IMG/VR virus record: IMGVR_UViG_3300023174_000052
Location: 64,001-128,000 of that record
Reading direction: 5' to 3' (one strand)
Source: a virus
DNA length: 64,000 bases
Shown piece after piece: positions 4,350-36,227 of this stretch. How positions within the stretch are numbered: the stretch's first letter is position 1; each line of letters opens with the position of its first letter. The translations under genes and the position numbers were made by a program. The notes under the pieces were generated by a model that had not been told where the DNA came from, searched no databases, and saw only the letters and a list, made by a program, of their open reading frames with translations.

Positions 4350-4406
4350 CCCGCTCTAAATAAAGGTCAAGTTAAAGTTCCGGCGCATAAATATGCGCCG
4401 AATTCG

Positions 4407-4784
4407 CTAATAACCTTCTTCGACGCGTTTTAGGATGATTCTATGTTTACGCTCGTAAGCCTCAACGAATTCTTTAGTATCTACTCCGACGTAGAGCAAA
4501 ACGTTGAAAAAATAATTGAATGAGTCAACTATTTCCTCAAGAAAGTGTTCTCGATCGAATTCGTTTAATTGAGATTGACGATGCACCTTAGAATTCTTTA
4601 AAACCTGTAGAGCCTCGAACATTTCTTCAACACCGCGAAGGGCAGTCTCTCGAAGAAATACCTGAGAATCTCTACTCGTCGGATCCAAAGGCATGTCGTG
4701 GACTGCAGAAGGAACTCGGCGCTTGAGTGCGTTCAAAAACTCCTTGCGGAGTTCGAACATATGTTCTAAATCATTAGCTGACAA
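4407..4784 (-). CDS. all-alpha NTP pyrophosphatase (dimeric dUTPase/MazG-like)
   Basis: EEMFEA and EEIVD acidic metal-binding motifs, K-x-H loop, C-terminal AYERKHRII..R; TTG start. Confidence 0.7.
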   Translation of the reverse strand: MSANDLEHMFELRKEFLNALKRRVPSAVHDMPLDPTSRDSQVFLRETALRGVEEMFEALQVLKNSKVHRQSQLNEFDREHFLEEIVDSFNYFFNVLLYVGVDTKEFVEAYERKHRIILKRVEEGY

Positions 4785-5013
4785 CTTGTCCCTCGTTATA
4801 ATCTTGCATTAACTGGCCTTGTTCAAGAACAGTCAACAAACTATCAATCTGATTATCATGAGACTTAAGACACGCTGCGCTTGGAACTAACTGCCCATCC
4901 TTCTCTTCGAGTTCTAAAAGTCGTAGATTATCAACAACGTCAGTGCCTGTCAAAATAGCAACCTGCAATTGTCGAGCAATTAAAACAATAGTATCATCAG
5001 ATAATTTCAACAT
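4774..5013 (-). CDS. hypothetical protein (79 aa)
   Basis: ORF overlaps both neighbours in a coupled operon. Confidence 0.7.
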   Translation of the reverse strand: MLKLSDDTIVLIARQLQVAILTGTDVVDNLRLLELEEKDGQLVPSAACLKSHDNQIDSLLTVLEQGQLMQDYNEGQVVS

Positions 5014-5348
5014 TAGATTCCCTCTCCATTTGAATTGAATTGTAATGGAAGATTTCGAAAAGTTTCATTCTCTTTTTTTGCTGAATCTTCCATCGTCATA
5101 ATCGCCATAGCTGCGTAATTGTGCAAGTCAATCAGAGTATCCCTAATAGACTCGTTATCTACAAGAGTGACTCCTGAATTGTTGATAGACATGAGACGTT
5201 TAATCTTATCGCCCATTCGAACGATTACACCGACAGGTCCAAACTCTGCGAATGCGTCACCATAGTCCCTATTCTTCTTCGCGAACAAATTTCGAGCCTC
5301 TTCTTGAATCATTCGCATTTGCTCGACTCGTTTCTCAGTTCTGTCCAT
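5013..5348 (-). CDS. DUF1599 / nucleotide-modification-associated domain 1 protein
   Basis: KKNRDYGDAF...VRMGDKIKRL...ESIRDTLIDLHNYAAM signature. Confidence 0.75.
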   Translation of the reverse strand: MDRTEKRVEQMRMIQEEARNLFAKKNRDYGDAFAEFGPVGVIVRMGDKIKRLMSINNSGVTLVDNESIRDTLIDLHNYAAMAIMTMEDSAKKENETFRNLPLQFNSNGEGI

Positions 5349-5760
5349 AGTGCTCCTTTAAAAAGTCGTGGTATTCGTTTAATGCGTGATCTTTAGGCTG
5401 CACTTCCTTCCAGTCTCCAAGGATGAAAATGCGATATGCATCCCTTGCGTACTTTCCAACTCCAGCCAATTCTTCAACATCCATCCACTGACCAGAATGA
5501 TACTGGAGAGACATCTTCTTTAGCGTTGCAGCTCGTCGTCGCCACATGCCTAATGGTTTAATCAACTCTTGCAATTCTTCTTCGTCGGCCTGGGATAACG
5601 CAGCTGCATTAGGCCAGCGCTTGAACATCTCTTCAACCACGGGCTCCATCTGTTTACGCGTCGTCAAATTAAGACAAAGACAACAGACCAGAATCTTCCA
5701 GCCATCGGGCCAATACTTTTCTTGAATCAGCCCGTACTTAGGCGGAACCCAACCTATCAG
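5335..5760 (-). CDS. HhH-GPD DNA glycosylase, MBD4-like (T:G/U:G mismatch type)
   Basis: WVPP..LIQE...W..L...LN...LIKPLG...RA....GVGKYARDAYRIF...W..VQPKDHALNEYHDFL is colinear with the MBD4 catalytic domain. Start uncertain: CTG at 5760 or GTG at 5853. Confidence 0.85.
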   Translation of the reverse strand: MIGWVPPKYGLIQEKYWPDGWKILVCCLCLNLTTRKQMEPVVEEMFKRWPNAAALSQADEEELQELIKPLGMWRRRAATLKKMSLQYHSGQWMDVEELAGVGKYARDAYRIFILGDWKEVQPKDHALNEYHDFLKEHYGQN

Positions 5761-6473
5761 TGTTTCTGGTTCTCGATGAATGCCTTGACCGTAACCGGCC
5801 AGAGTTCCTGTACAATTTCCAACATCGCATTCGCTACTCGCTGGATTTCCCACTGTGCTCCCTCATGAGTTCGTAGTTCGATAAAGTGCATAACGTTTCG
5901 AAGATTCGCGGTACAGTAATATTCAGTGTAGAGATTCTGGGGTAGGACCATTCGAGCCTGCTCTCGACAGACTCCCTTCGCAGACAATTCTTCGTATAAT
6001 CGATGGGCGATTCCGACGAAGGCGTTCATAGACTCTGCTGCGTTACCACAATCGCCAGTCTCATGTGGATCACGATAACACCAACTCATTTCTGGATTGA
6101 TTAGTTCCTCAGCGTTAGAGGCCTGACGATTCGACTTATGCTGACTTCTAAATGTCTGAGGTAGGTAGAATTGAATATTTTCGTCAGTGTAACGACGTGA
6201 CACCTCATTGTATGCCGCGGTGCGGTGGCGCATGTGTTGAGAACGAACAAAAAGAGGAACCTTTACTCGAAAGGTGACGACGTTATGTTCAAGCGTTGAT
6301 GTATGCTTATGGTCGATAAGGTACTTGATAAGCTTTTCGTCCTTCGTATCAAGCGAATCCTTATGCTTGTTAAACGAGACACGCGCTGCGTTAACAATGG
6401 TTAAATCCGTTCCCATGTGCTCAACTAACTCGACGAATCCAATCTTATCGTCGTAAAGATATTTCCTACTCAA
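5757..6473 (-). CDS. thyX: FAD-dependent thymidylate synthase
   Basis: RHRTAAYNEVSRRY (RHRx7SxR motif), AARVS, HTSTLEH, REQARMVLP, LR..EGAQWEI; TTG start with AGGAG. Confidence 0.96.
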   Translation of the reverse strand: MSRKYLYDDKIGFVELVEHMGTDLTIVNAARVSFNKHKDSLDTKDEKLIKYLIDHKHTSTLEHNVVTFRVKVPLFVRSQHMRHRTAAYNEVSRRYTDENIQFYLPQTFRSQHKSNRQASNAEELINPEMSWCYRDPHETGDCGNAAESMNAFVGIAHRLYEELSAKGVCREQARMVLPQNLYTEYYCTANLRNVMHFIELRTHEGAQWEIQRVANAMLEIVQELWPVTVKAFIENQKH

Positions 6474-6555: not shown

Positions 6556-7800
6556 ATGTTTAGACTGGCGTTAGTGTTTTTATTAGCCTCGCTCTCTTGC
6601 AATTCAGATTACGCGCTTAATGAAGAAGTTCCACCACCACCGCCTGCACCCGAACCTGACATATTAGTCGCAGGTGGTAGTCTAATCGTCGACGGTCTAC
6701 AACCAGGTTGCGAATCCCCAGGATCTTTTAGAATCTCTAACGTAGGCGAAGCGAATCTAACAGTAGATCAAATAGATGTATTCGCCAGTGCCCCCGTAGA
6801 TTCTATCATTCAACCCTACTCGAATAGATTACCCGTAACTATTATTCCTGGCGATTATTTCGAAGTTGAATTTATGACGACTTCTTCTGACAACGTCGAC
6901 GATGCTATCATCGCGATAGTGCATTCTGATGATCCGGATGAAAGTATTGTTCAAACTCAAGTAGAGATACCTTCAGCGCCAGGAGAACTCAGGGAAGAGA
7001 CTTTCGAAATCGAAGAGGCAAAATCAGCAGACATAATTCTTGTCGTTGATAACTCTGGCTCGATGTTAGAGGAACAGACTGAATTAGCATCTAATGCCCA
7101 ACTATTCGTCGATGAACTAAACGCTTCAAACATAGATTATAGAATTGCTGTTATAACGACAGACTCAAGTTATCATGCCGGGCCCTTCATCACACCATAT
7201 ACATCTAATCCTGCGTCTTTATTAGCATCAGAAGTCCTTGTGGGTATATTCGGTAGCGCAGTCGAAATGGGATTATACGAAGCCAAATTAGCTTTAGAAC
7301 CCCCAGGATTCGCGGCACCTGGTGGGAGTTTTCTTAGAGAAAATGCGAGGCTTTCTATTGTGTGGATATCCGACGAAGACGATTTCTCTGTCGGAGATGT
7401 CTCATCGTATGTATCAGATTTCTGGTCAAAGAAATCGTCACCAGGCGAAGTGTCAGTTTGGGGTATTATCGGAGATCCGATGTTAGGATGCTCGAGTGCC
7501 CAACCCGGTGATAGATACTACGATATCATTACTATCATGGGTGGTGGCTGGACTTCTATTTGTTCAAGAGACTGGGGTGCGCCACTCTCGGCTGTCGCCG
7601 GTAGTGTTGGTGTTGATTCTGTATTAGAACTATCAGGTAATCCAGCACCAGCCACGATAGAAGTAAAAGTTAATGGAACGCAAACATGGAATTGGGTATA
7701 TGTCGTGGCCGATAATTCAATATCGTTTAATCCAGGACATATACCCAATGTCGGTTCGCGTGTAGTAGTAAGTTATCAAACTTACGGAGAATGCGATTAG
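6556..7800 (+). CDS. vWA-domain lipoprotein with Ig-like domains
   Basis: Lipobox-like MFRLALVFLLASLSC; Pro linker; Ig-like ISNVGEANLTV...HSDDPDE; MIDAS DIILVVDNSGSM; ISDEDD; AGGAG RBS. Only plus-strand gene. Confidence 0.85.
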   Translation: MFRLALVFLLASLSCNSDYALNEEVPPPPPAPEPDILVAGGSLIVDGLQPGCESPGSFRISNVGEANLTVDQIDVFASAPVDSIIQPYSNRLPVTIIPGDYFEVEFMTTSSDNVDDAIIAIVHSDDPDESIVQTQVEIPSAPGELREETFEIEEAKSADIILVVDNSGSMLEEQTELASNAQLFVDELNASNIDYRIAVITTDSSYHAGPFITPYTSNPASLLASEVLVGIFGSAVEMGLYEAKLALEPPGFAAPGGSFLRENARLSIVWISDEDDFSVGDVSSYVSDFWSKKSSPGEVSVWGIIGDPMLGCSSAQPGDRYYDIITIMGGGWTSICSRDWGAPLSAVAGSVGVDSVLELSGNPAPATIEVKVNGTQTWNWVYVVADNSISFNPGHIPNVGSRVVVSYQTYGECD

Positions 7801-8265: not shown

Positions 8266-8583
8266 CTATTCAGGGAATTCTTTCTGTATCCACTTACTTC
8301 TTACTTCAATTCTTTTAACTTTCTCTTTTCTATCGAGTTGTTTAAATGCATATTCGGCTTTCAAAGCTTCACTCTTTGTTTGATATGGCCACCAACAAAG
8401 CATTTTAACAGGAATTCTTGAGCGAGTGTATTTTGCCCCTCGCCCAGAATTATGCATCGCTAAACGTCGATCTAAATCGTTCGTGATTCCAGTGTAGAGG
8501 GTCCCGTCCCTACATTGAAGGACGTAGACCCACCAGCACTCATCACCCCAGTATATTTCCTTACTCGAGTCCGTACTTGACAT
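8266..8583 (-). CDS. GIY-YIG nuclease (UPF0213/YazA-like)
   Basis: VYVLQCRDGTLYTGITNDLDRRL..HNSG.GAKYTR...EALKAE. Confidence 0.9.
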   Translation of the reverse strand: MSSTDSSKEIYWGDECWWVYVLQCRDGTLYTGITNDLDRRLAMHNSGRGAKYTRSRIPVKMLCWWPYQTKSEALKAEYAFKQLDRKEKVKRIEVRSKWIQKEFPE

Positions 8584-9270: not shown

Positions 9271-11007
9271 TTAACTGCACTTTGACGAACCACAAGAAGA
9301 ACACGTCATGCATCCCTCTTGGTATACAAGACTGTCGCTACCACAATTTTGACATGTCTTACCTGCGATCGTAGTTCCATCCTTGATGTATCCCTTAAGG
9401 ACTCGCGAGATTGTCTTCGCGAACGAGAACATGTCGCTATTCTTATCTTTCTGGAGTTGTTCGACAACATATTGGATGGGTACTTCATGACGAAGGGCAA
9501 GAGAAATCGTCCTACTGAACGCACCTTGAGTTGGATTGTCAAATAAGTTAGCTACGTCCTTGAACATTAGCTCATCGTCTTCACCAAGTGGAATCGATAG
9601 ATTGTATGTTGACATTCCATCTCGTTTACCATTCTTGATAAGATTACCAATCTTGTGCTTCTTGGGCGCTTCAATATTTCCTGCTAATCCGCAGAAGACT
9701 TCGTAAGGCTTACCATCCAGAAGACCGATGAGTACCATCCAGTTTTCAGACTCGGTTCCATTACGTACAGTTACACGGTGAATGTCACATGGGATGGACT
9801 TCGGACGCTTCTTCGAATCACGGCCGGGTGGCTTCAATGGGTCCTGCTTCTTTGGAGCTTCCGTAGATACAAGCACACCATTACGACAACCATCACGATA
9901 GACAGTGAATCCCTTGCAACCAGATTCCCAAGCACGAAGATAAACGTCGGAGACTAATTCCTTCGTTGCTGAGTTCGGAAGGTTACACGTCTTCGAAATC
10001 GAGTGGTCAATCCAACGTTGCGCCGCAGCCTGTAATTCTACTGAAGATACCCAATCTACGTCGTTAGCAGTCGCACCCCAATAAGGAGATTCCTCAGGTG
10101 CCTCGAGTCCAGTTACATCCATCCACTTCTTAAACCAGTGATGATAAACGGTGTATTCTGTCCACTTATCTCCCAACTCATCTACGAAATCCACCTTCGA
10201 AGTGAAATCGCCAGGTGTAACCTTACGACGGCGCTTATAAGAAAGGAGGAACGCGGGTTCGATGCCTGAGGTGGTTCGGGTAAGACAAGAGACGGAACCG
10301 ACGGGTGCAGTGGTCGTCAATGCAATATTACGACGGCCAGTCTTACGCCACATCTCTTTTACGCTTTCACCGCATGCGTCCATGATCTTCGAGAGGTATT
10401 CATGATCCTTCTCTTTCTTATATTCGAACATTGGAAAAGGACCACGCTCATGAGCGAGGATACAAGAAGACGTATGCGCAGCAATCGCAAGAGAACGATA
10501 GATCTTTTCAGTCCACGTAATGGACTCTTCGCTACCATACTTTACACCGAGCGCAGCGAGACAATCTCCGAGACCCGTAATCCCCAACCCCGTACGGCGA
10601 CCGTTCAATCCCGCAGCGCGAATCTTCTGCCATAAGTCTCGTTCGATTTGTTTAACCTGGTTGGGTTCGGTGTCTCGTTCAAGCTTCTTAATAATCTTGT
10701 CAACGCACTCGACCTCGAGGTCAACGAGATCGTCCATTAGTCGCTGCGCTCGCATAGCGACCTTATGGAACCTATCGAAATCAAAGCGTGGCGAAGACGA
10801 GAACGGTTCGTTAACGAACGACGTAAGGTTAAGAACCATGAGACGACAAGAGTCATATGGAGACAGTGGAATCTCTCCACAATTATGAACGAGTAATCCA
10901 TTAGCGAAAAAATTGTGTGTATCGTCCACTGTTAAATCATAAACAGTTTCATTTTGTGCCTCTTCAATTGACACAATCTCATCCCAAAAAACATTACCTT
11001 CAATCAT
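9271..11007 (-). CDS. nrdJ: class II (B12) ribonucleotide reductase, C-terminal half, with N-terminal split-intein C-fragment
   Basis: 42-aa IntC ending NFFANGLLVHN, then CGEIPL...CRL, RRTGLG, TTAPVGS, SGIEP, DHSISKTCN, KGFTVYRDG, TSCPD-like region and Cys-rich tail. Confidence 0.92.
   Translation of the reverse strand: MIEGNVFWDEIVSIEEAQNETVYDLTVDDTHNFFANGLLVHNCGEIPLSPYDSCRLMVLNLTSFVNEPFSSSPRFDFDRFHKVAMRAQRLMDDLVDLEVECVDKIIKKLERDTEPNQVKQIERDLWQKIRAAGLNGRRTGLGITGLGDCLAALGVKYGSEESITWTEKIYRSLAIAAHTSSCILAHERGPFPMFEYKKEKDHEYLSKIMDACGESVKEMWRKTGRRNIALTTTAPVGSVSCLTRTTSGIEPAFLLSYKRRRKVTPGDFTSKVDFVDELGDKWTEYTVYHHWFKKWMDVTGLEAPEESPYWGATANDVDWVSSVELQAAAQRWIDHSISKTCNLPNSATKELVSDVYLRAWESGCKGFTVYRDGCRNGVLVSTEAPKKQDPLKPPGRDSKKRPKSIPCDIHRVTVRNGTESENWMVLIGLLDGKPYEVFCGLAGNIEAPKKHKIGNLIKNGKRDGMSTYNLSIPLGEDDELMFKDVANLFDNPTQGAFSRTISLALRHEVPIQYVVEQLQKDKNSDMFSFAKTISRVLKGYIKDGTTIAGKTCQNCGSDSLVYQEGCMTCSSCGSSKCS
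10882..11007 (-). mobile_element. split intein C-fragment (IntC, 42 aa)
   Basis: Block F VYDLTVDDTHNFFAN, block G VHN, followed by the +1 Cys. Confidence 0.93.
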
Positions 11008-11797
11008 TTTTTAACTCCATGAGTCTTACTTTCTTCCACTCATTAATAATATCTTTTTGTTTTCGATTTATTAATAAAAACAGTTCGTCTGAGATTAATT
11101 CGGCAGATATATCGCCGTATTCTTTTTTAAACATTTCGAATTTGTCGATTCTTTCTAAAGAACCATTTGACCACCTGGATTTAATCTCTACGATCTTGGA
11201 GAGATTATTGTTTTCGTAAATAAAAAAATCGGGTCGATAATATCTGCCATCTGACAGAAGGTACGAACGTGCTTCGACGTCCCATTCTATTCTGTTATCA
11301 TTTAAAAATTTTGCATAACCATATTCCCAAGAACTTCGCAACCAAACATATTTTGATTTAGATTCGTTAAGGTACCAACCCGCAACGTGATGTTTATTAA
11401 CGATATCTTTGTCTTTGTATTTTTCAGTCCAATTCGTCCACGGATTATTAGTCTTGGCACGCTCTGATCTTATCTTTTTTAAACCTTCTGTGACACAGTT
11501 TTGGCCCGCTCGTTTTTCTATTCCTAACGTTTCAAATACAGTTCTTAATCTTGTGTAAGAAATGTTTCCCAAGTAAGAACTAATCAACTTAAAACCCATT
11601 CCATTCTCTTCATACAAAATCGTTAGATTTCGTATTAATTTTTGACAATCTTTATGTGAGGCGTCGATTACATAACTTGCGGTTATCTTTCCACCTCTAC
11701 CTATAAATTCTCTTTTAATTTTAGAACAGGCTATTTCTTGTATTAATTCTCTGGTTTCGTTGATCAGTCCTTCTAACGCTTGAATATGTTCGTACAT
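11000..11797 (-). CDS. free-standing putative homing endonuclease, PD-(D/E)xK fold
   Basis: LRSSWE...EWDVE...YRPDFFIY...IVEIKS; AT-rich; lies between the two intein halves. Confidence 0.8.
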   Translation of the reverse strand: MYEHIQALEGLINETRELIQEIACSKIKREFIGRGGKITASYVIDASHKDCQKLIRNLTILYEENGMGFKLISSYLGNISYTRLRTVFETLGIEKRAGQNCVTEGLKKIRSERAKTNNPWTNWTEKYKDKDIVNKHHVAGWYLNESKSKYVWLRSSWEYGYAKFLNDNRIEWDVEARSYLLSDGRYYRPDFFIYENNNLSKIVEIKSRWSNGSLERIDKFEMFKKEYGDISAELISDELFLLINRKQKDIINEWKKVRLMELKND

Positions 11798-11846
11798 TTA
11801 CTAATCCCTCCATTTATAAGTATATTGCAAGGATTAGTAAATTTTC

Positions 11847-13028
11847 TCATTTAGAATCAAAGGAAAGAATTTTATCGTCTTTTGTTAAATCTGCCGCTTC
11901 GACCCAACCGCGTTGTGTGTATACGCGGTGATCTGGCGTTAATCTAATTTTCTTTCCTGACTTGGTTTTTAGTTCAAGAATCTTTGCGTCATCTTTCGTC
12001 TTAAACGCAACAGCTGACTTTTTAACGACTTCTTTCTTTTCGGTATCAAAGGACTCTACAAAGAACTGCGCATTTTGTTCTGCCAACTCTTTTACAGTCT
12101 TTTCTCCTGCATTTGTTAGGACCAGAGTATCTCCTGTCACGCATGGATTTGTCGAAATTGACTTATAGCCCATTGACTCGTAAATATCTGCCGTTCCATT
12201 CTTCGTAACATTGTCCCAGAACAAAGCGCCTGGTTCTGCCGAAGACCATGCTGCATCCACGAACTGGTCCCAGATTGCCTTAGCCGATACTGTCTTTGTG
12301 TATTCGGCGTTCTCTACGCTCTTCTCTACGGGCCACCGGAGTGTAAAATCCGTACCTGACTTCACGGCATGCATAAACTCATCCGTGAAACGAATAGAAA
12401 TATTTGCACCAGTTACCTTCTTAAGATCACGCTTGATATTAATGAAGGTCTCGATCTCTGGGTGGCGACAGTCGATTGAAAGCATCAACGCTCCTCGACG
12501 ACCGCCTTGGGCGACCTCTCGACATGAATTTGAGAATCGCTCCATGAACACGCCGATACCGTCAGTCGTACGAGCAGCGTTAGAAGTAGGAAGACCCTTG
12601 GGACGAATGTTCGATACGTCGAATCCTACGCCACCGCGACGCTTCATGATTTGAACCTGCTCTTGGTCAGAGAATAAGATGCCGCCGTAAGAATCTTTAG
12701 GGCTATCGATGACGAAACAGTTCGAAAGCGACTGAATCTGATAGGGATTTCCAATTCCTGACATCGGAGAACCTTGCGGAACAATGTCTGCGAAATTCTT
12801 GAAGTATCCGTAGATTTCTTCTTCAGACATTGGATTGGGATACTTCGATTCTACGTGGGCGAATGCCTTCGCCAAGCGACGGTGCATCTGGTCTGGATTC
12901 GTTTCCAGAAGTTCACCCGCTTCATTTCGAAGCGCGTATTTCATGAATACATCAGGAGCAAGTGGATCTCCATCAAAGTATTCAGATGTTTCACGTAGCG
13001 CGATCTCTTGTACGTTAGTTAAAGACAT
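11847..13028 (-). CDS. nrdJ: class II ribonucleotide reductase, N-terminal half, with C-terminal IntN
   Basis: PQGSPM, LSNCFV, GGVGFD.S.IRPKG, QGGRRGALM, HPEI, ANISI, AEPG, STNP|C. Likely start is ATG 13028, just after the helicase stop. Confidence 0.92.
   Translation of the reverse strand: MSLTNVQEIALRETSEYFDGDPLAPDVFMKYALRNEAGELLETNPDQMHRRLAKAFAHVESKYPNPMSEEEIYGYFKNFADIVPQGSPMSGIGNPYQIQSLSNCFVIDSPKDSYGGILFSDQEQVQIMKRRGGVGFDVSNIRPKGLPTSNAARTTDGIGVFMERFSNSCREVAQGGRRGALMLSIDCRHPEIETFINIKRDLKKVTGANISIRFTDEFMHAVKSGTDFTLRWPVEKSVENAEYTKTVSAKAIWDQFVDAAWSSAEPGALFWDNVTKNGTADIYESMGYKSISTNPCVTGDTLVLTNAGEKTVKELAEQNAQFFVESFDTEKKEVVKKSAVAFKTKDDAKILELKTKSGKKIRLTPDHRVYTQRGWVEAADLTKDDKILSFDSK
11850..12143 (-). 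mobile_element. split intein N-fragment (IntN, 98 aa)
   Basis: Block A CVTGDTLV directly after ...STNP; block B IRLTPDHRVYT; GWVEAADL; ends at a stop codon. Confidence 0.93.
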
Positions 13029-13030
13029 TT

Positions 13031-14410
13031 TTACTTGCTCCCCATTACTTCTTTCCATTTTGCTTGTAGGACTCGTTTTCTTTCGCTTTCATCTTGAGCC
13101 AAAGATTCTTGAAGACTCAAACTATTTTCATCAAGGATTCTAATTTTAGAGCGAGAAGTGTCAATGTGTACTGGAAAAATGATGCCATCTCGGCCGGCTC
13201 GATTCTTCGCAACGAACATTCTCCCCATTCCAGTCGCCTTTTCCGAAGGTTTTCGCGATAGAGAAATTACTACGTCGGCGACCATTGCCTTACCATAAGA
13301 TTCAGACATGTTCTCCAAACCTACGACGTCTGCGTTCGAACCCTCTCTATTCGACTGCGAAGCAGTCCAGATTGGGATAGCCTTTTCCATTGCAAGATTT
13401 CGTAGATCTTCATAGATTAGTTTTAGCTCCATTCGTAGAGCGTCGAATTCTCGACTCGAACGCATAATGTCGGCGTAGTCAATAATGATAACATGCGGGA
13501 CGAATCCACGAAGAGCTAACTTTTCTAAGTGATTTCGAATAGTAGCAACTGTACATGTACCGGTTGGATACTCTTTAATAATCAACCTACCGAGTTCCAT
13601 GCCCTTATACATATCGATGACATTTGTCTTCGAATCCTGAATGTCACTCGATGGGATATCCGTTAGATTTGAATCGTATCGAATTCCTACAGCAGTCTCG
13701 GTCAGTTCGAAAGTATAATGAACAACGTTCTTGCCGACCTTTAACGCGTTAGCTCCCATAGCAACAAGAAAGTGAGACTTTCCAACACCAGTTGGAGCGG
13801 CTATAACTCCAAGTTCACCCTTGCCAAGACCACCATTTAGAACAGAGCGTTCGTCAAGCTGTTCGATACCAGTTGGACAAGGCATGCGATTAATCTTAAC
13901 GAAACGCGCTTCCATATCTTCGAAGAAATCATGACCAACAGATGCTGCGATACCAACGGATACCGCCTTCTTCATGAGATCGACAACTGCGTCATACTGG
14001 TCGGTACCGATGAGCTCAACAGATTTATTAAGAGCTTCCTTCATCGCTTGCTTGCGACAAAAATCCAGAGACTTATCTTTTACATACGCGAGATCTCCCA
14101 TATCAGGAAGCGTACGCATGCGTGTTAAGTATTCTACGACCTGCTCTTTAAGAACTTCGTTATTCGTTTCTCGAAGGTCGTCTTTGACGATGGAGATTAG
14201 AAGGGGAAGGGTTGGAAAGTTCTTGTACTTCTCAAAGTACTTGAAATACTTGTCGGTCAAATAAGCGAGATAACGTAGATCGAAAAAATCCGATCGCATT
14301 ACTTCTGTCATTTGTGTAGCCCAAGTTGTATCTGTGATCAAACCAAGAAAGATTCTTTCCTGGAATGGGCGACCGTATTGTCCAAAGTAATTCTCACTAC
14401 CGTCAATCAT
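13031..14410 (-). CDS. DnaB-family replicative helicase (T4 gp41-like)
   Basis: Walker A APTGVGKS, FELTE, IIDYAD, WTASQSNR, KNRAG. Confidence 0.92.
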   Translation of the reverse strand: MIDGSENYFGQYGRPFQERIFLGLITDTTWATQMTEVMRSDFFDLRYLAYLTDKYFKYFEKYKNFPTLPLLISIVKDDLRETNNEVLKEQVVEYLTRMRTLPDMGDLAYVKDKSLDFCRKQAMKEALNKSVELIGTDQYDAVVDLMKKAVSVGIAASVGHDFFEDMEARFVKINRMPCPTGIEQLDERSVLNGGLGKGELGVIAAPTGVGKSHFLVAMGANALKVGKNVVHYTFELTETAVGIRYDSNLTDIPSSDIQDSKTNVIDMYKGMELGRLIIKEYPTGTCTVATIRNHLEKLALRGFVPHVIIIDYADIMRSSREFDALRMELKLIYEDLRNLAMEKAIPIWTASQSNREGSNADVVGLENMSESYGKAMVADVVISLSRKPSEKATGMGRMFVAKNRAGRDGIIFPVHIDTSRSKIRILDENSLSLQESLAQDESERKRVLQAKWKEVMGSK

Positions 14411-29700: not shown

Positions 29701-31227
29701 TAATCTAGCTGCTGATTTTAACGCGTCCATTATCGAATAGAGAAGTTCTTTCATTGGCTTCGCTTTCATAATGCCATTTGTAAAACCGTCAAAGAACGTC
29801 TTGAACAAGCTTCCGAGATATTGAATAGGTTCGAAAGCTTTTTTGATATTATCTGCCATATTCTGCATTATCTCTTCTTGAGATAACTGCTTATCAGCTG
29901 CGCCTTCTGCAGCAGCAGAAATTTCGTCGTAGGACATACCCATATTTTCTGCAGATAATGCGGCCTCGACCATATTCGCATCCATACCAGCGGTCTGCGC
30001 GAGTAAGTCTTTTTCGGCTCGAGACATATCTTTTATCGATCTACCCGTTGCAGCGAACGACTGGCGTAACATATCGAGACGTTTCGAAGGATCCTGCTCC
30101 TTCATCATTTGCATCGCATCGACATTCATTCCGAAGGATTGCGCGAGTTTAGATGCATTAGTCGCTGCTGTCTCAAAATCATCGAAAGCACCCATTAAAC
30201 CTTCGAGATCCTTGATTTCTAATCCTAATTTTCTAACGTATACAGCTGACGTTGCCATTTGAGCTTTAGTCATAGCTCCGAATTTGCCCATGTTCGACGT
30301 CATGTAAGTCATATCCTTACCCATGAGCTTCGAAGAGATTCCGAATTTTTTGCCCATTTGTACGGATAAATTACCAATCTCTTTCAATGAATCTGTAATA
30401 TTTTCGCCTCGGGCAAGTGCAGTAGACCCGAGAGATTTCATCGCTTCGTTAGTGATGCCGAGACCTTTTTGATAGATCACTACCTGCGCGGCGTTTTCAA
30501 CCATCTGGTTACCTAACGCGCTAAATACTGGTCCCATCGCTTCGGCAGTTTCGCTAAGCTCCTGCATCGCCTTAGCCAAACCATCAGGACCATAACCATA
30601 AATTGATCCTAAAGAGCGACCAGAACCTGCTAAATTACCAGATTGTTTATTTAATTCTTTATATGAATCTATAACAGCCTTGCCTTCATTCGAAGCCAGA
30701 CTTCCAAATTTATCTCTTACTTCTTCGAATGCAGTCCTCAATACAAGCGAATCGTTCGCGAGATTAGCGGCCTCTTCCTGTAATGAACTTAAAATTCCCA
30801 TAGGAATAGAAAGTAATGCTCCACCAATTCCTATAATGCTGCGAGTTAGTGACGTCACAACTCCGACTACGCCACCTAATACATCTTTAAACTTCTGAAA
30901 TGCAGTACGTCCTGCTTTCGCTGCTTGCGTCGCAGCAGGACCAACGTTAGGTATCTCTCTAGCAGCTTCTGTTGCAGCAGCTGTCACGCCTTCGATACCT
31001 GTCGACGCAGATCGAGCTGCATCGGCGGCTGCTGTCAACGCAGCCGCCATATTATCAACACCCTCGGGCTTTTTTGAACCTTTATCTAATAACTCTGCCA
31101 GCTTTTCAGATATCTGGATCTGGTTTCGCAGTACTTCATTTTGCTTAGACATAAGCACAGTTCTTGCTTCCAGCAATTCATTAATCTGGCGCTGAATGTC
31201 TAGATTTCCAGTATCTTCGGTAGCCAC
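26752..31227 (-). CDS. tape measure protein (1491 aa)
   Basis: Long helical Ala/Gly-rich protein with a hydrophobic central region and ~70-aa repeats (DWDDIKKVFAAT x2; GNRAT x2); downstream of tube and chaperones; GTG start with GGAGG. Confidence 0.88.
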   Translation of the reverse strand: MATEDTGNLDIQRQINELLEARTVLMSKQNEVLRNQIQISEKLAELLDKGSKKPEGVDNMAAALTAAADAARSASTGIEGVTAAATEAAREIPNVGPAATQAAKAGRTAFQKFKDVLGGVVGVVTSLTRSIIGIGGALLSIPMGILSSLQEEAANLANDSLVLRTAFEEVRDKFGSLASNEGKAVIDSYKELNKQSGNLAGSGRSLGSIYGYGPDGLAKAMQELSETAEAMGPVFSALGNQMVENAAQVVIYQKGLGITNEAMKSLGSTALARGENITDSLKEIGNLSVQMGKKFGISSKLMGKDMTYMTSNMGKFGAMTKAQMATSAVYVRKLGLEIKDLEGLMGAFDDFETAATNASKLAQSFGMNVDAMQMMKEQDPSKRLDMLRQSFAATGRSIKDMSRAEKDLLAQTAGMDANMVEAALSAENMGMSYDEISAAAEGAADKQLSQEEIMQNMADNIKKAFEPIQYLGSLFKTFFDGFTNGIMKAKPMKELLYSIMDALKSAARLGRVLGNVFVTAFPGVKEMLGGVAGFFRDISKTLDGITKDVKNFKNGVDGTFKDFQKNPEKYINKFTDYISNAFKKIFGDKNGRGSTILDGMMKFGSFLLKSLIALLPKLLSGLTDIIKKLAAWIRGMNAGSSLLKPLIDGIMDVLPDLLHALWDLFVEAFKALSPILVPVIGAYIGFMLLKATISAISSAVVLKIKSKIADAIGVKPGEEKQPVPISEKMREAAKSVMGIVEELGNVKPGTVAKAGLNLLIIAAFVSGAVYAFSLAISESAALFAGISWDQVNMVFISMALGISATLGLAFAASALSEAIPEMLIGILGLTVAALFVIDGILWFSIAVRMAADILKPVDWDDIKKVFAATGFGILATIVLAFTAASLVADGGATLTIGMAGLLLAAIFTTAGIVVFSKAVAYAAGVLKEVDWDDIKKVFAATATGIGALIGIAVASIALATAAPAMALGLVTLPLAVAFLTFGVAVLAAGINSLITRTNIADPSKVLKIFELILVSMTAVGALVAASGTFALMGPYIIPLIASTLLMAKFMEETSGSLARGLSAIDRINVTDPEQLKLKVELIGKLVESMSSLGTLAVDAGKLDIASKIFKGNSASSAIESMGSFLEKIKGKITGLLTTVMTIALDTQKYPKGVISRAVGVADVIGKIANLAGALTQPISALAGIKGGLALGNRATEIIDFIMVRFTQLLPVLSKAIQDIIPEVFKTAKLIPPGFNKEKADAFASAIGAVASLVTAISSPIQALAGIEGGGILMGNRATDKIDQIMKSMGTIMETIKTELPYIVDSVVLAADGLPDDFNNEKAQTIATVIGTIKPVAESLGEIMKLSEGKALDAVLIKKNIDSLRAPLANLAGFMPDYFKVSDMLSTYKEKTMAPLVTAIVDDIKAVNSALESLGDIQMDATVEKIGKNLGIKDSIIQLERKPITMNVQLNLTMKADDIAKEIFDVSAKMINANPNDPSIKNIAAAFGAQGK

Positions 31228-31273
31228 GGGTCAACGACCTCCCTACATCGTAACTATCGGGAGGCTCAAGTTT

Positions 31274-31510
31274 TTAGAGACCCCAATTCTGTCCTGTAAC
31301 GCGTTCAAATCTCGAAACAGCTATTCTTTTCTGTTCCAAGGCGCTTGCAACTTCATCGATCTTACCTTCTCGAAGCGCTAATAGCAATTTTCTCGAAGTG
31401 TTTGCAGCTTCATACATAACAGAAATAAAAACAGGATCACCGACAAGAGTTAACGTCTTACGATGACCCGAAATATATTCTACAAGAGATTTTTTAATAA
31501 TGGGTTCCAT
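31274..31510 (-). CDS. hypothetical protein (78 aa)
   Basis: Compact ORF in the tail operon with upstream ATAATTA. Confidence 0.6.
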   Translation of the reverse strand: MEPIIKKSLVEYISGHRKTLTLVGDPVFISVMYEAANTSRKLLLALREGKIDEVASALEQKRIAVSRFERVTGQNWGL

Positions 31511-31539
31511 AATGAGTAATTATCTCTTCATTTTTCTTT

Positions 31540-31788
31540 TTATGTAAATCTTCGAAGTTTCGCAGGAACTTGTGATCTTGCCTTATTCGTTAGCGCTCTG
31601 GCTTCGGGTGAATTCGCATGAGCAGCTCTCGAATCTTCTGAACCCTTCATCTCCCGCTGCAATCTCTGTAAAAACCAGACTCTATATTGTACCGGTAGAT
31701 TATAGCACTCCCAATAACTGAATCCCATATAATACATCAACAAGAAGGAGTGCTCTAAGTATATCTCTCTATCAGTCGGCGTCAGGCC
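31540..31788 (-). CDS. T4 gp51-like tail/baseplate chaperone segment, probably reached by frameshift
   Basis: Frame open from the T7 run: GLTPTDREIYLEHSFLLMYYMGFSYWECYNLPVQYRVWFLQRL; no SD before the internal TTG/ATG. Confidence 0.65.
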   Translation of the reverse strand, partial: GLTPTDREIYLEHSFLLMYYMGFSYWECYNLPVQYRVWFLQRLQREMKGSEDSRAAHANSPEARALTNKARSQVPAKLRRFT

Positions 31789-32632
31789 AAAAAAAGCTGG
31801 CCCCTAGAGGCATTCTCACCTCCGAAGATTCACCACACGCCGTGCAATCGATGAACTGCTTCATATCGATGCCAGGTTCATTCTTGTCGATGAATTGACG
31901 AAGAGTCATAGAATCGCGAGCTGGCATCGAACGAATGAACGACGCAATGAGAGACTTATCTGTCTTTCCATCAACAGCGACGAGAGAAAACTGTAGGCGA
32001 GTTGTCACTAAAGAGTCAGCCTGCGCGCCTGACTTCTTCTTGCGCTCCTGGATCGTCATGATTTCTTCTTCATCAGCACCCGTGAGGAACTTAAAACGAA
32101 CGTTTTTCTTAGTTACAGGTAACTGGAATTCAAAAATATTCGCGCCGATTTCAACAGGCTGAATCTGTAGTTCCTTGATCGGAAGAGAAGACAGGTCGAA
32201 CTCGTGCTTTGAACGGTCGCCACAAGAAGGACAATCGACTTCGGCTGTATACTCAGCACCGTAACCGGTGATTCGAAGCGCGATCATAATCGCGTTTCTA
32301 TCTCCTGATAACATTTTTTGAACGTCTATACGCTTATCAATTACACAAGATTGTAATAAATTCGTGATAACAGTTCCTTTCTTGATGAGGGCACGAGAGG
32401 TTAGAATATCTTCTTCCCTGGCTGTCATCGAGCGTATTTCAACTGTTTCTAGTCCATGCAACGGAGAATCAGACGGGTATACTAACCCATGTGTCGGGAG
32501 TGGTATACTCTCAACGGGTATCTCAAACCCGAAATCATCTTTCATTACGTCTCGAGTCATTACACCGGCAGGGGCGCCACCCATTGGACCTTGTCCACCG
32601 AAAACGCTATTCTTATCACCTCTATCTGCCAA
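31772..32632 (-). CDS. T4 gp26-like baseplate-hub / tail assembly chaperone
   Basis: IPLPTHG..YP, MTAREEDILT, GDRNAIMIALRITGYG, CPSC and CTAC, terminal FFWP; TTG start with GGAGG. Confidence 0.85.
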   Translation of the reverse strand: MADRGDKNSVFGGQGPMGGAPAGVMTRDVMKDDFGFEIPVESIPLPTHGLVYPSDSPLHGLETVEIRSMTAREEDILTSRALIKKGTVITNLLQSCVIDKRIDVQKMLSGDRNAIMIALRITGYGAEYTAEVDCPSCGDRSKHEFDLSSLPIKELQIQPVEIGANIFEFQLPVTKKNVRFKFLTGADEEEIMTIQERKKKSGAQADSLVTTRLQFSLVAVDGKTDKSLIASFIRSMPARDSMTLRQFIDKNEPGIDMKQFIDCTACGESSEVRMPLGASFFWPDAD

Positions 32633-32657
32633 AAGAACCTCCTAATATATCAAATTA

Positions 32658-32686
32658 ATGATACTATCAGGAGATAGCGTTGTAAA
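32658..32686 (-). promoter_or_regulatory. sigma70-like promoter of the chaperone gene
   Basis: TTTACA-N17-TATCAT. Confidence 0.6.
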
Positions 32687-32705
32687 TTATTCGTCGTAAT
32701 TTTAT

Positions 32706-32735
32706 AAAAGAAAAGGCCCGGATGCCCGGGCCTTT
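32706..32735 (-). terminator. intrinsic terminator after the tail tube gene
   Basis: AAAGGCCCGG-GCAT-CCGGGCCTTT followed by TCTTTT. Confidence 0.88.
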
Positions 32736-32761
32736 GTTCTATCGCATCTAGTATGCAAACA

Positions 32762-33250
32762 TCAGAACTGAAGTATAGCGTTATCCATTTGAATCGTGAG
32801 CGAGATTTCTGTCGCGTCTTCGGTGCCGTAATCGAGGTCGCCGAACTGTGCAGATGTAATCTGCGCGCCCTTGACGTCCCAGAGTTCTACGACGGTACCA
32901 ACTGGGTCAAGCATCTTTAATTGGATATCACGCTTGTAAAAGTCAGCATAACCCGCGCGGCCTGAGACTGACTCGTAGTGCGCGCGGACCCATTCCATAA
33001 CCTGCTGCGCTCCAGACGGAGCGATGGGATCATAGAGCGTGATCGCCATGGTCGAGAAAGTTGCCTTACCCGCGACGTAGCGTTTCGTATTGATCCAGTG
33101 CATTTCTGTTACACCGATATCAACTTGGGGACGAGCAGTTCCCTTAACGAGGAACGAATCGATGCCGTCTATAGCGAGGACCCACCTAAATTTGCGCTTC
33201 GGTTCGAAGCGGTTCGGTAGCATTTCGCCGACTGAGAGTGTTTCTGCCAT
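32762..33250 (-). CDS. tail tube protein (gp19-like)
   Basis: EPKRKFRW, ITLYDPIAPSGAQQVMEW, GYADFYKRDI.LKMLDPVG.VVE.W. Confidence 0.92.
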   Translation of the reverse strand: MAETLSVGEMLPNRFEPKRKFRWVLAIDGIDSFLVKGTARPQVDIGVTEMHWINTKRYVAGKATFSTMAITLYDPIAPSGAQQVMEWVRAHYESVSGRAGYADFYKRDIQLKMLDPVGTVVELWDVKGAQITSAQFGDLDYGTEDATEISLTIQMDNAILQF

Positions 33251-33292
33251 TTTAGTATTCTCCTAATTTCTATATATTCTCTCGGTCGCCTT

Positions 33293-36199: not shown

Positions 36200-36227
36200 A
36201 CCAAATCTCCTATCATTACTTTATGTA

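What the first reader, a model, noticed from the sequence alone, without database searches (positions are those of the whole stretch)
5335..5760. Phage-encoded MBD4-like mismatch DNA glycosylase
Seen: the protein is colinear with the catalytic domain of eukaryotic MBD4 as I recall it (WxPP, LxQE, W..L, LKPLG, GxGKY..D.YRIF, V.P.DH.L..YHD.L). It keeps the pocket Gln and Tyr and the catalytic Asp, and has no Fe-S cluster, unlike bacterial MutY/Nth/MIG. The MBD4 'Arg finger' (LNRT) reads LNLT here. Known: MBD4 excises T or U opposite G, mainly at deaminated methyl-CpG. Inference: a stand-alone phage repair enzyme for deaminated (modified) cytosine, or a weapon against uracil/modified DNA; possibly relevant to the origin of MBD4.
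Basis: partly seen in the sequence, partly recalled or inferred. Interest (0 to 1): 0.8.

Follow-up and report, generated by a model that had tools for sequence, protein, structure and literature searches.

The report
Phage MBD4-type mismatch DNA glycosylase
An uncultured T4-like phage carries a stand-alone copy of the catalytic domain of the eukaryotic repair enzyme MBD4, and because the phage also has genes predicted to replace its cytosine with a 5-hydroxymethyl-derived base, the enzyme most likely repairs the G-mismatches left when those modified cytosines deaminate.

Summary
The ORF at 5335..5853 (-) encodes a 172-aa protein. Residues 33-170 match the MBD4 glycosylase domain (phmmer 1.6e-34 against MBD4, 6e-4 against MutY). 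The AF2 model superposes on human MBD4 (TM 0.94, rmsd 1.1 A, 42% identity).

- **Active site:** the catalytic Asp (D155), pocket Gln (Q44) and Tyr (Y135) are present. There is no Fe-S motif and no Nth-type Lys.
- **Arg finger:** LNLT in place of LNRT is the normal phage state. An Arg three residues later (R66) is conserved instead.
- **Host element:** the window is a far-T4-like myovirus.
- **Cytosine modification:** elsewhere its genome encodes a dCMP-hydroxymethylase-type thymidylate-synthase homolog, a carbamoyltransferase and a dCMP deaminase. This predicts 5hmC-derived DNA.
- **Distribution:** relatives occur in at least 591 IMG/VR viral contigs. Three signature patterns found none in 185,579 prokaryote species genomes.
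- **Linked genes:** relatives are often followed by a Nei/Fpg gene. In 5mC phage Xp12 the relative lies two genes from the dCMP methylase.

Best reading (about 0.65): a monofunctional glycosylase that removes T, U or 5-substituted U opposite G. The link to cytosine modification is suggestive, not strict. The direction of transfer between phages and eukaryotes is unresolved. Activity is untested.

The parts
5335..5853 (-). MBD4-type HhH-GPD DNA glycosylase ORF (172 aa, P0001). It starts at GTG 5853-5851. The homologous core is residues 33-170, about 5344-5757.
5858..5864 (-). Shine-Dalgarno-like GAGGGAG, 4 nt upstream of the GTG start. It lies inside the thyX coding sequence.
   Evidence: read directly from the sequence
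5389..5391 (-). Codon of D155, equivalent to the catalytic Asp560 of human MBD4. It is invariant in all 359 family sequences with a residue at this column.
5722..5724 (-). Codon of Q44, equivalent to Gln449, which reads N3/O2 of the flipped pyrimidine (the Q449A mutant is inactive).
5449..5451 (-). Codon of Y135, equivalent to the pocket Tyr540. It occupies the position of the Nth Lys120 nucleophile, so the enzyme is predicted to be monofunctional.
5656..5667 (-). DNA-penetrating loop L63-T-T-R66. Leu sits where mammalian MBD4 has the Arg468 finger, and the conserved Arg sits where mammals have Gly471.
5757..6473 (-). thyX (flavin-dependent thymidylate synthase), the upstream gene of the same operon. 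Its last 97 nt overlap the glycosylase ORF.
   Evidence: Thy1, 2e-55
5013..5348 (-). DUF1599, 'nucleotide modification associated domain 1' (phrog_1485). It overlaps the glycosylase stop by 14 nt. It sits in the slot where related phages carry Nei.
4774..5013 (-). orf79, a small conserved protein that always precedes the MazG-like gene in related phages.
4407..4784 (-). MazG/dUTPase_2-like nucleoside triphosphate pyrophosphohydrolase, the last gene of the operon.
   Evidence: (phrog_12184, 9e-12)
4379..4402 (-). Terminator-like GC-rich hairpin just after the MazG-like stop. It is the likely end of the thyX-glycosylase-DUF1599-orf79-MazG transcription unit.

Best explanation
The gene encodes a stand-alone, monofunctional DNA glycosylase of the MBD4 type. 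It most likely flips out and hydrolyses a pyrimidine that is mispaired with guanine. The expected substrates are thymine, uracil, 5-hydroxymethyluracil and possibly bulkier 5-substituted uracils. These are the deamination products of 5mC, C and 5hmC-derived bases.

Excision leaves an abasic site. In many related phages a Nei/Fpg-type AP lyase encoded just downstream would process that site. In this phage a host enzyme, or a gene in the unsampled half of the genome, would have to do so.

This phage is predicted to replace cytosine with a 5-hydroxymethylcytosine derivative, probably 5-carbamoyloxymethylcytosine. Deamination would then give 5-substituted uracils opposite G, which Ung-type uracil glycosylases are not expected to remove. 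A phage-borne MBD4-type enzyme would fill that gap.

Shown here: family membership, fold, intact catalytic residues, phage origin, gene context and the modification genes. Inferred: the substrate range, the base actually present in virion DNA, and the repair role.
For: Family and active site:
- Sequence and fold match MBD4.
- D155 (hD560) and Y135 (hY540) are invariant across 361 family members, and Q44 (hQ449) is Q in every viral and short metagenomic member.
- Residue roles come from the MBD4-DNA structures (PMC3479182). That paper also reports that the 5-CH2OH of 5hmU makes no protein contact, and that the orphan G is read by main-chain carbonyls, so the Arg side chain is not needed for G recognition.
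- There is no Cys cluster after the catalytic Asp. Tyr stands where Nth has Lys120, so the enzyme should be monofunctional.

Cytosine modification in the same genome:
- G000 encodes a thymidylate-synthase homolog whose best solved relative is the CMP hydroxymethylase MilA (3e-37, against 2e-22 for the best thymidylate synthase).
- That homolog has Asp at E. coli ThyA N177 and Asp at L143. PMC13326640 describes this as the dCMP-hydroxymethylase signature.
- One gene away from it lies a full-length 601-aa carbamoyltransferase. A dCMP deaminase lies close by.
- This is the gene set that MetaGPA tied to 5-carbamoyloxymethylcytosine phage DNA (PMC8670742).

Independent lineages:
- Xp12 (5mC DNA) and its relatives, including Janthinobacterium phage Donnerlittchen, carry a homolog. 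It lies two genes upstream of an Asp-type thymidylate-synthase homolog, which in Xp12 I take to be its dCMP methylase.
- Cyanophage S-TIM54 has both genes.
- Of 21 thymidylate-synthase homologs in MBD4-like-bearing IMG/VR records, at least 17 are Asp-type.

Repair module:
- A Nei/Fpg gene with an intact MPEGPE N-terminus lies within about 0.3-2 kb downstream in most of the 24 (of 80) viral loci that have one, across several clades.
- Among DnaB-matched relatives, Nei accompanies the glycosylase in 10 of 15 loci, against 1 of 9 loci without it (Fisher p = 0.013, not corrected for relatedness).
Against: - No activity has been measured.
- The Arg468 finger is Leu and Lys562 is Ala, so specificity could differ from mammalian MBD4.
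- Neither Nei/Fpg nor another AP-processing enzyme was found in the 175 kb held, which CheckV estimates at 52% of the genome.
- The link to cytosine modification is not strict. Within the closest phage lineage a thymidylate-synthase homolog is present in 7 of 12 records with the glycosylase and 2 of 7 without it (p = 0.35).
- Three large records (39-70% complete) have the glycosylase but no thymidylate-synthase homolog and no C5-methyltransferase.
- No T-even coliphage appears among the cultured-phage hits, although from general knowledge those phages carry 5hmC DNA.
- It is not known whether a carbamoyloxymethyl group fits the pocket.
- The modified base in the virion is predicted, not measured.
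Confidence: 0.65

Rival explanations
1. It is a general G:U and G:T mismatch glycosylase for phage genome maintenance, with no special tie to modified cytosine. It would stand in for a uracil or mismatch glycosylase in large aquatic phages. Its place among nucleotide-metabolism genes would reflect only the usual clustering of replication and repair genes.
For: - The within-lineage test shows no significant link to thymidylate-synthase homologs (7 of 12 against 2 of 7).
- Records G054, G055 and G067 have the glycosylase but no thymidylate-synthase homolog or C5-methyltransferase in 39-70% of their genomes.
- The gene sits in a conserved DnaB-RNR-ClpP-ThyX replication and nucleotide block.
Against: - All cultured bacteriophages with a homolog also carry an Asp-type (dCMP-specific) thymidylate-synthase homolog. 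In the Xp12 group the two lie two genes apart.
- This genome has a full cytosine-modification operon.
- At least 17 of 21 thymidylate-synthase homologs in glycosylase-bearing records are the cytosine type.
Confidence: 0.2
2. It is a counter-defence enzyme. It would reverse damage done by host DNA cytosine deaminases, or by other base-damaging defence systems, by removing the resulting U or T opposite G quickly during infection.
For: The chemistry is the same as in the repair reading. The gene is present in some and absent from other closely related phages (15 loci with it, 9 without), as is common for conflict genes. The family looks restricted to viruses among prokaryotic sequences.
Against: No defence or anti-defence gene is linked to it. 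The neighbours are nucleotide-metabolism and BER genes. Nothing ties its presence to a host deaminase.
Confidence: 0.08
3. It acts in the modification pathway itself or against host DNA. It might remove unmodified or wrongly modified pyrimidines so that they are replaced, or nick host DNA. Alternatively it is a catalytically silent DNA-binding protein.
For: The gene is translationally coupled to a DUF1599 'nucleotide modification associated' gene and lies close to a MazG-like gene. Other glycosylase-like folds are used in thymidine hypermodification (PMC8256090).
Against: The hydrolytic active-site residues of MBD4 (Asp, Tyr and, in the phage members, Gln) are invariant. From my own knowledge of the field, MBD4 does not excise C or 5hmC paired with G. 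The repeated pairing is with an AP lyase, not with a transferase. DUF1599 is found beside it only in this genome.
Confidence: 0.05

Closest known systems
Catalytic (glycosylase) domain of eukaryotic MBD4 (human residues about 426-580; PDB 4DK9, 4E9G, 6VJW, 1NGN)
   Same: - 42-43% identity to the solved mammalian domains and 41-50% to the best eukaryote-type database hits, colinear over the whole domain.
- Predicted fold superposes with TM 0.90-0.94 and rmsd about 1.1 A.
- Catalytic Asp, pocket Gln and Tyr, and the Leu/Met wedge are kept.
- No Fe-S cluster and no Lys nucleophile.
   Different: - No N-terminal methyl-CpG-binding domain or linker, so no targeting to methyl-CpG.
- The Arg468 finger is Leu, and Arg sits at the Gly471 position.
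- Lys562 is Ala.
- It is encoded by a bacteriophage, in an operon with thyX, DUF1599 and a MazG-like gene.
Uncharacterised homologs in 5-methylcytosine phage Xp12 (QNN97216.1) and related Bradleyvirinae phages, annotated 'hypothetical protein', 'endonuclease III' or 'ENDO3c domain'
   Same: The same family (34-36% identity). They are stand-alone proteins of about 155-160 aa with an LNLTT loop and the catalytic Asp. They are encoded beside genes that make C5-modified dCMP.
   Different: They belong to siphoviruses of a different phage family. The neighbouring thymidylate-synthase homolog has Asn, not Asp, at the L143 position, which fits Xp12's methylated rather than hydroxymethylated cytosine. 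No Nei partner is seen.
Fe-S-containing HhH-GPD glycosylases: MIG (M. thermoautotrophicus T:G glycosylase, 1KEA), MutY and Nth
   Same: The HhH-GPD superfamily fold and the catalytic Asp. MIG also removes T and U opposite G.
   Different: Only remote similarity (E = 6e-4 to 0.3, 16-24% identity). This protein lacks the C-terminal four-Cys Fe-S loop and, compared with Nth, the Lys nucleophile.

Membership tests
MBD4-type glycosylase domain family (HhH-GPD superfamily) | Best and full-length sequence match is to MBD4 catalytic domains, well separated from MutY, Nth and MIG | tested here: met
   MBD4 1.6e-34 over query 34-169, MutY 6e-4, Nth 0.014, MIG 0.3; the best hits in the 50%-identity library are C-terminal domains of protist MBD4 proteins.
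MBD4-type glycosylase domain family (HhH-GPD superfamily) | MBD4 catalytic-domain fold | tested here: met
   AF2 model pLDDT 86 (at least 93 in every ten-residue block but one (89) between residues 41 and 170). Foldseek top 16 hits are all MBD4, with TM by target 0.90-0.94 and rmsd 1.0-1.8 A.
MBD4-type glycosylase domain family (HhH-GPD superfamily) | Catalytic Asp560 and pocket residues Gln449 and Tyr540 | tested here: met
   They correspond to D155, Q44 and Y135. Asp and Tyr are invariant across 361 members. Roles are taken from PMC3479182.
MBD4-type glycosylase domain family (HhH-GPD superfamily) | No [4Fe-4S] cluster loop and no Lys nucleophile (monofunctional enzyme) | tested here: met
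   The protein ends 17 residues after D155 with no Cys in that stretch. Tyr135 aligns with Nth Lys120.
MBD4-type glycosylase domain family (HhH-GPD superfamily) | Arg468 'finger' that fills the gap left by the flipped base | tested here: not met
   The position is Leu63. This residue is not family-wide. It is Arg in only 42 of 130 eukaryote-type sequences (Lys 39, Gln 21), and Leu, Gln or Cys in phage members. Arg at the 471 position is present in 177 of 200 phage and metagenomic members, and never occurs together with Arg468 in the eukaryote-type set.
MBD4-type glycosylase domain family (HhH-GPD superfamily) | Excision of T, U and 5hmU opposite G | not testable with these tools
   This needs a glycosylase assay on defined duplexes.
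Full-length MBD4 protein (methyl-CpG-binding domain plus glycosylase) | N-terminal methyl-CpG-binding domain | tested here: not met
   The protein has 172 aa. Pfam finds only HhH-GPD. Residues 1-30 are predicted disordered.
MutY / Nth / MIG (Fe-S HhH-GPD glycosylases) | C-terminal Cys-x6-Cys-x2-Cys-x5-Cys Fe-S loop, and family-level HMM score | tested here: not met
   No such motif is present. NCBIfam nth scores 32.9 bits against a cut-off of 211.7, and mutY 17.5 against 286.5.

The most novel reading that the evidence does not exclude
The MBD4 glycosylase domain is, among non-eukaryotes, essentially a phage invention. It would have evolved as the deamination-repair arm of phage genomes built with 5-methyl- or 5-hydroxymethyl-cytosine. 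Eukaryotes would then have acquired it from such phages and fused it to an MBD domain, in parallel with the proposed phage ancestry of the TET/JBP dioxygenases.

The evidence does not exclude this. Relatives are abundant and very diverse in viral contigs (at least 591). Three signature patterns found none in 185,579 prokaryote species genomes. Phage sequences take the deepest positions in the outgroup-rooted tree. However, monophyly of the eukaryotic sequences and monophyly of the phage sequences are each left unrejected (AU p = 0.79 and 0.64), so the direction of transfer is open.
Probability: 0.3. Interest if true: 0.8.

Novelty: new variant of a known kind. Interest (0 to 1): 0.65.

Why it matters
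- **A gap in phage biology.** Phages that replace cytosine with 5mC or 5hmC derivatives face a problem that has had little attention. Deamination of these bases gives T or 5-substituted U opposite G, which uracil glycosylases are not expected to remove. A dedicated MBD4-type enzyme, often with a Nei partner, would be the matching repair system. Because the cultured 5mC phage Xp12 has a homolog, the idea can be tested by ordinary genetics and biochemistry.
- **Distribution.** A large, diverse clade 41-50% identical to eukaryotic MBD4 appears in viral contigs, with no relative found by pattern scans of prokaryote genomes. This makes the origin of a central enzyme of eukaryotic methyl-cytosine maintenance a concrete phylogenetic question.
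- **Practical use.** Small, stand-alone G:T and G:5hmU glycosylases without CpG targeting may be useful reagents for methylation sequencing and for removing deamination damage.
- **Annotation.** PHROGs has no family for this protein. Deposited phage records call the homologs 'hypothetical protein' or 'endonuclease III'. I found no paper on them in nine searches of the held library.

Tried and rejected
- **PHROGs:** no family matches the glycosylase.
- **NCBIfam:** only sub-threshold nth and mutY hits.
- **Literature:** nine full-text searches and reading of the MetaGPA, phage TET, 5hoC, defence-glycosylase and jumbo-phage papers. I found no description of phage MBD4-type glycosylases. HhH-GPD is not in the stored (truncated) MetaGPA tables. 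The Iyer et al. 2013 paper could not be fetched.
- **C5-DNA methyltransferase as the source of 5mC:** none in G000 and none in five related records.
- **Nei/Fpg in G000:** none in the 175 kb held.
- **CpG depletion as a footprint of methyl-CpG deamination:** CpG is over-represented (observed/expected 1.39), so this gives no signal.
- **Within-lineage test of glycosylase against thymidylate-synthase homolog:** not significant (p = 0.35).
- **Direction of transfer from trees:** the backbone is unresolved. The E. coli outgroups sit on branches of 8-9 substitutions per site. AU tests reject neither eukaryote monophyly nor phage monophyly.
- **Cellular prokaryotes:** only pattern scans were possible.
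- **An error of mine, corrected:** I first took D138 (GKY..D) for the catalytic Asp. Counting back from the C-terminus of human MBD4 shows that D155 is the equivalent of D560. D138 is variable and not catalytic.
- **Fused forms:** longer ORFs (260-293 aa) in some viral loci show no second Pfam domain.
Full report
**1. What is at the locus**

The minus strand carries one ORF at 5335..5853 (172 aa, P0001). It opens with GTG at 5853-5851, four bases after GAGGGAG at 5864-5858. No ATG, GTG or TTG lies between this start and the conserved domain. The ORF overlaps the end of thyX (5757..6473) by 97 nt.

Many relatives start with Met immediately before the conserved Trp (MW.PPK). A few share the long N-terminus. 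In the model residues 1-30 are disordered (pLDDT about 50). The exact start does not affect the domain.

**2. Family assignment**

- Pfam finds HhH-GPD (7.5e-9).
- Phmmer against all PDB sequences gives 1.6e-34 to 3.6e-33 for the 15 MBD4 glycosylase-domain sequences, aligned over query residues 34-169.
- The next hits are MutY (6e-4), Nth (0.014) and MIG (0.3).
- An AF2 model built from 34 family sequences has mean pLDDT 86. Every ten-residue block from 41 to 170 scores at least 93, apart from residues 61-70 at 89.
- Its 16 best Foldseek matches in the PDB are all MBD4, with TM by target 0.90-0.94, rmsd 1.0-1.8 A and 41-43% identity. MutY and MIG follow at E of about 4e-4.
- NCBIfam nth and mutY score far below their cut-offs. 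PHROGs has no family for this protein.

**3. Active site**

I numbered human MBD4 back from its C-terminus and used the alignment. The equivalences are:

| Human MBD4 | This protein |
|---|---|
| Q449 | Q44 |
| L466 | L61 |
| R468 | L63 |
| G471 | R66 |
| L506 | L101 |
| L508 | M103 |
| Y540 | Y135 |
| D560 | D155 |
| K562 | A157 |

The MBD4-DNA structure paper (PMC3479182) reports the following:
- D560 is the catalytic residue.
- Q449 and Y540 read the flipped pyrimidine, and Q449A is inactive.
- The orphan guanine is read by the main-chain carbonyls of R468 and L506.
- The R468 side chain fills the gap left by the flipped base.
- The hydroxymethyl group of 5hmU makes no protein contact.

Across 361 family sequences the Asp and Tyr are invariant. 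The Gln is present in every viral and short metagenomic member, and is Gln or Glu in the long, eukaryote-type ones.

The finger position varies:
- Viral members have Leu (35), Gln (32), Cys (12) or Arg (3).
- Short metagenomic members have Leu in 109.
- The long, eukaryote-type sequences have Arg in only 42 of 130 (Lys 39, Gln 21).

Arg at the 471 position is present in 69 of 84 viral and 108 of 116 metagenomic members. In the long set it never occurs together with Arg468 (0 of 42, against 21 of 88 without Arg468). So LNLT is the normal phage state, and the Arg has probably moved along the same DNA-penetrating loop.

The protein ends 17 residues after D155 with no Cys, so there is no Fe-S loop. 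Y135 aligns with Nth Lys120, which predicts a monofunctional enzyme.

**4. The element is a phage**

The window encodes T4-type proteins:
- major capsid (Gp23, 1.9e-75), portal (6.6e-78) and large terminase;
- two sheath proteins and gp15;
- gp32, a RecA/UvsX-like protein and a DnaB-like helicase;
- a 5'-3' exonuclease and a ribonucleotide reductase interrupted by intein halves.

Almost all genes are on one strand. The window is bases 64001-128000 of a 175,594-bp IMG/VR virus record that CheckV rates 52% complete. The closest cultured capsids are only 32-45% identical (Microcystis phage Mel-JY01, Flavobacterium phage immuto, RM378). An uncultured metagenomic phage record reaches 49%.

Locally the order on the minus strand is:
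- DnaB
- RNR N-half
- a 265-aa ORF
- RNR C-half
- ClpP
- GIY-YIG
- a 147-aa ORF
- a VWA-like gene on the opposite strand
- thyX
- the glycosylase
- DUF1599
- orf79
- a MazG-like gene

A terminator-like hairpin follows at 4379-4402.

**5. The phage is predicted to have modified cytosine**

Outside the window the same record encodes a ThyA-family homolog.
- Its best solved relative is the CMP 5-hydroxymethylase MilA (3e-37, against 2e-22 for the best thymidylate synthase).
- It has Asp at E. coli ThyA N177 (RSSDIILGLAYD) and Asp at L143 (KDVPC), and it keeps D169.
- PMC13326640 describes N177D as specifying dCMP and an acidic residue at L143 as allowing hydroxymethylation. It uses D169N as the mark of 5-hydroxy-dCMP synthases, and that change is absent here.

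Neighbouring genes:
- One gene away is a full-length 601-aa carbamoyltransferase with both N- and C-domains.
- Nearby are an SDR epimerase, thymidine kinase, a DHH phosphoesterase and dCMP deaminase.

MetaGPA linked this set (thymidylate-synthase homolog, carbamoyltransferase, PRA-PH/MazG and dCMP deaminase) to cytosine-modified phage contigs. It showed that such a carbamoyltransferase converts 5hmC to 5-carbamoyloxymethylcytosine (PMC8670742).

Two earlier first-stage notes on this genome describe the same operon. I checked the thymidylate-synthase residues and the domain content myself. No C5-DNA methyltransferase is present.

**6. Relatives and their context**

*Metagenomes and viral contigs.* The word-indexed search found 125 stand-alone relatives of about 140-176 aa in metagenomes. 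[quoted passage not shown] A scan of IMG/VR found at least 591 viral contigs that encode a relative.

*The conserved block.* In the far-T4-like lineage the gene sits in a conserved block: DnaB, RNR, ClpP, sometimes GlnA, ThyX, the glycosylase, Nei/Fpg, orf79 and the MazG-like gene.
- An Asp-type thymidylate-synthase homolog lies 4-9 kb downstream in many of these loci.
- The Nei partner has all three Fpg/Nei domains and the catalytic N-terminus MPEGPE.
- Nei also follows the glycosylase in a different jumbo phage that has a DnaE polymerase, and in several distant viral clades.
- In the present genome DUF1599 occupies the Nei slot. That gene was not found beside any other family member.

*Cultured phages.* The hits are:
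- Xanthomonas phage Xp12, whose DNA carries 5mC in place of C, and its relatives. These include Stenotrophomonas phage AXL_1 and Janthinobacterium phage Donnerlittchen.
- Cyanophage S-TIM54.
- An archaeal virus with a more MutY-like protein.

In Xp12 and Donnerlittchen the homolog lies two genes upstream of an Asp-type thymidylate-synthase homolog. A dCMP deaminase and DHFR follow it. S-TIM54 also has an Asp-type homolog.

**7. How strong is the link to cytosine modification?**

Points in favour:
- Of 50 glycosylase-bearing IMG/VR records, 21 hold a thymidylate-synthase homolog, and at least 17 of these are Asp-type. Nearly all have Asp at L143 as well.
- Every cultured bacteriophage with the glycosylase has an Asp-type homolog.

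Points against:
- I ran a within-lineage control using DnaB as bait. It gave 15 loci with the glycosylase and 9 without it at the same slot.
- One of the records lacking it at the slot (G067) turned out to carry a copy elsewhere in the contig. After moving that record, a thymidylate-synthase homolog was found in 7 of 12 records with the glycosylase and 2 of 7 without. Fisher p is 0.35.
- Three large records (39-70% complete) have the glycosylase but neither a thymidylate-synthase homolog nor a C5-methyltransferase.

By contrast, Nei tracks the glycosylase: 10 of 15 loci against 1 of 9 (p = 0.013, not corrected for relatedness). The BER-module reading is therefore better supported than exclusive dedication to modified cytosine. 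For this particular genome the modification operon makes 5-substituted uracils the expected lesions.

**8. Relation to eukaryotic MBD4**

In the exhaustive search of the 50%-identity library, 2448 proteins score at or below 1e-3. The top hits (41-50% identity) are mostly long proteins with the domain at the C-terminus. Those I looked up are MBD4 proteins of Phaeocystis, Prasinoderma, Acrasis, Cyanophora and Ceratiomyxa.

Two pattern scans of one genome for each of 185,579 bacterial and archaeal species found no relative. They used three family signatures, including the LN[LQC]T..R loop. These are pattern scans and not HMM searches, so absence is provisional.

In BFVD the only clear structural match is a granulovirus HhH-GPD protein.

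The trees have 146 columns and an unresolved backbone.
- FastTree puts most eukaryote-type sequences in one subtree among viral clades.
- IQ-TREE with E. coli Nth and MutY as outgroups separates the whole family from them by a very long branch. It places viral sequences deepest.
- AU tests reject neither eukaryote monophyly (p = 0.79) nor phage monophyly (p = 0.64).

The data show one family shared by phages and eukaryotes. They do not show who gave it to whom.

**9. Verdict**

The most likely function is removal of T, U or 5-substituted U opposite G, to start base excision repair of deaminated cytosine derivatives in phage DNA. I put this at about 0.65.

The rivals are:
- modification-independent mismatch repair, about 0.2;
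- counter-defence against deaminases, about 0.08;
- a role in the modification pathway, against host DNA, or a non-catalytic role, about 0.05.

The enzyme kind is known. What is new is the stand-alone, phage-borne form with a relocated Arg, its Nei partner, and its recurrent association with C5-modified cytosine, including in the classic 5mC phage Xp12. I found none of this in the literature I could search.

Noticed in passing
window 5757-5853: thyX and the glycosylase ORF overlap by 97 nt in different frames. The glycosylase frame has no canonical start codon nearer to its domain. Relatives P0002 and P0011 share the long N-terminus, while most others start with Met right before the conserved Trp.
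   Followed up: partly
window 5013-5348: A DUF1599 gene ('nucleotide modification associated domain 1', phrog_1485, function unknown) is translationally coupled to the glycosylase. It sits exactly where related phages carry Nei/Fpg. It was found beside none of the other 80 viral family members examined.
   Followed up: partly
window 4407-5013: orf79 (no Pfam hit) and a MazG/dUTPase_2-like gene form a conserved overlapping pair. The pair recurs downstream of the glycosylase and Nei in 13-20 of 80 viral loci.
   Followed up: partly
window 9271-13058: The ribonucleotide reductase is encoded as two ORFs. Each carries an intein-splicing half, and a 265-aa ORF lies between them. An earlier first-stage note reads this as a split intein.
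   Followed up: no
window 6556-7800 (+): The only sizeable plus-strand gene in this stretch. It is a 414-aa protein with a signal-peptide-like N-terminus and a weak VWA domain (1.4e-4), inserted between the 147-aa ORF downstream of ClpP and GIY-YIG and thyX.
   Followed up: no
window 8266-8583: A free-standing GIY-YIG domain protein (105 aa, 7.7e-19) lies next to ClpP. It may be a homing-endonuclease remnant.
   Followed up: no
window 33293-39221: Two adjacent, unusually long tail-sheath paralogs (968 and 997 aa). Only their C-terminal parts match the sheath domains.
   Followed up: no
G000:C1 about 31100-34600 (L006, L117): Between the carbamoyltransferase and the MilA-like thymidylate-synthase homolog lies a 218-aa ORF with no Pfam hit. 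An SDR epimerase/dehydratase follows, which hints at chemistry beyond carbamoylation.
   Followed up: partly
L040-L044 (9554-10432); L082 and L085: Some viral family members sit in longer ORFs of 260-293 aa, with N- or C-terminal extensions that have no Pfam domain. L040 lies in a record that IMG/VR classes as a provirus. It has a thymidylate-synthase homolog and a dCMP deaminase 4 kb away.
   Followed up: partly
L211 7435-8352; L212 826-1743: In one sublineage a Gad2-family (PF26128) gene is inserted between the glycosylase and Nei.
   Followed up: no
alignment A1 and (family-wide): A minority of family members (for example P0011, P0057, P0118, P0143) change the HhH-loop Lys (hK539, GVG-K-Y) to Glu or Gln. 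A minority also replace D543 with Arg, Thr or Ala. All of them keep the catalytic Asp, so they may form a subfamily with altered DNA contacts.
   Followed up: no
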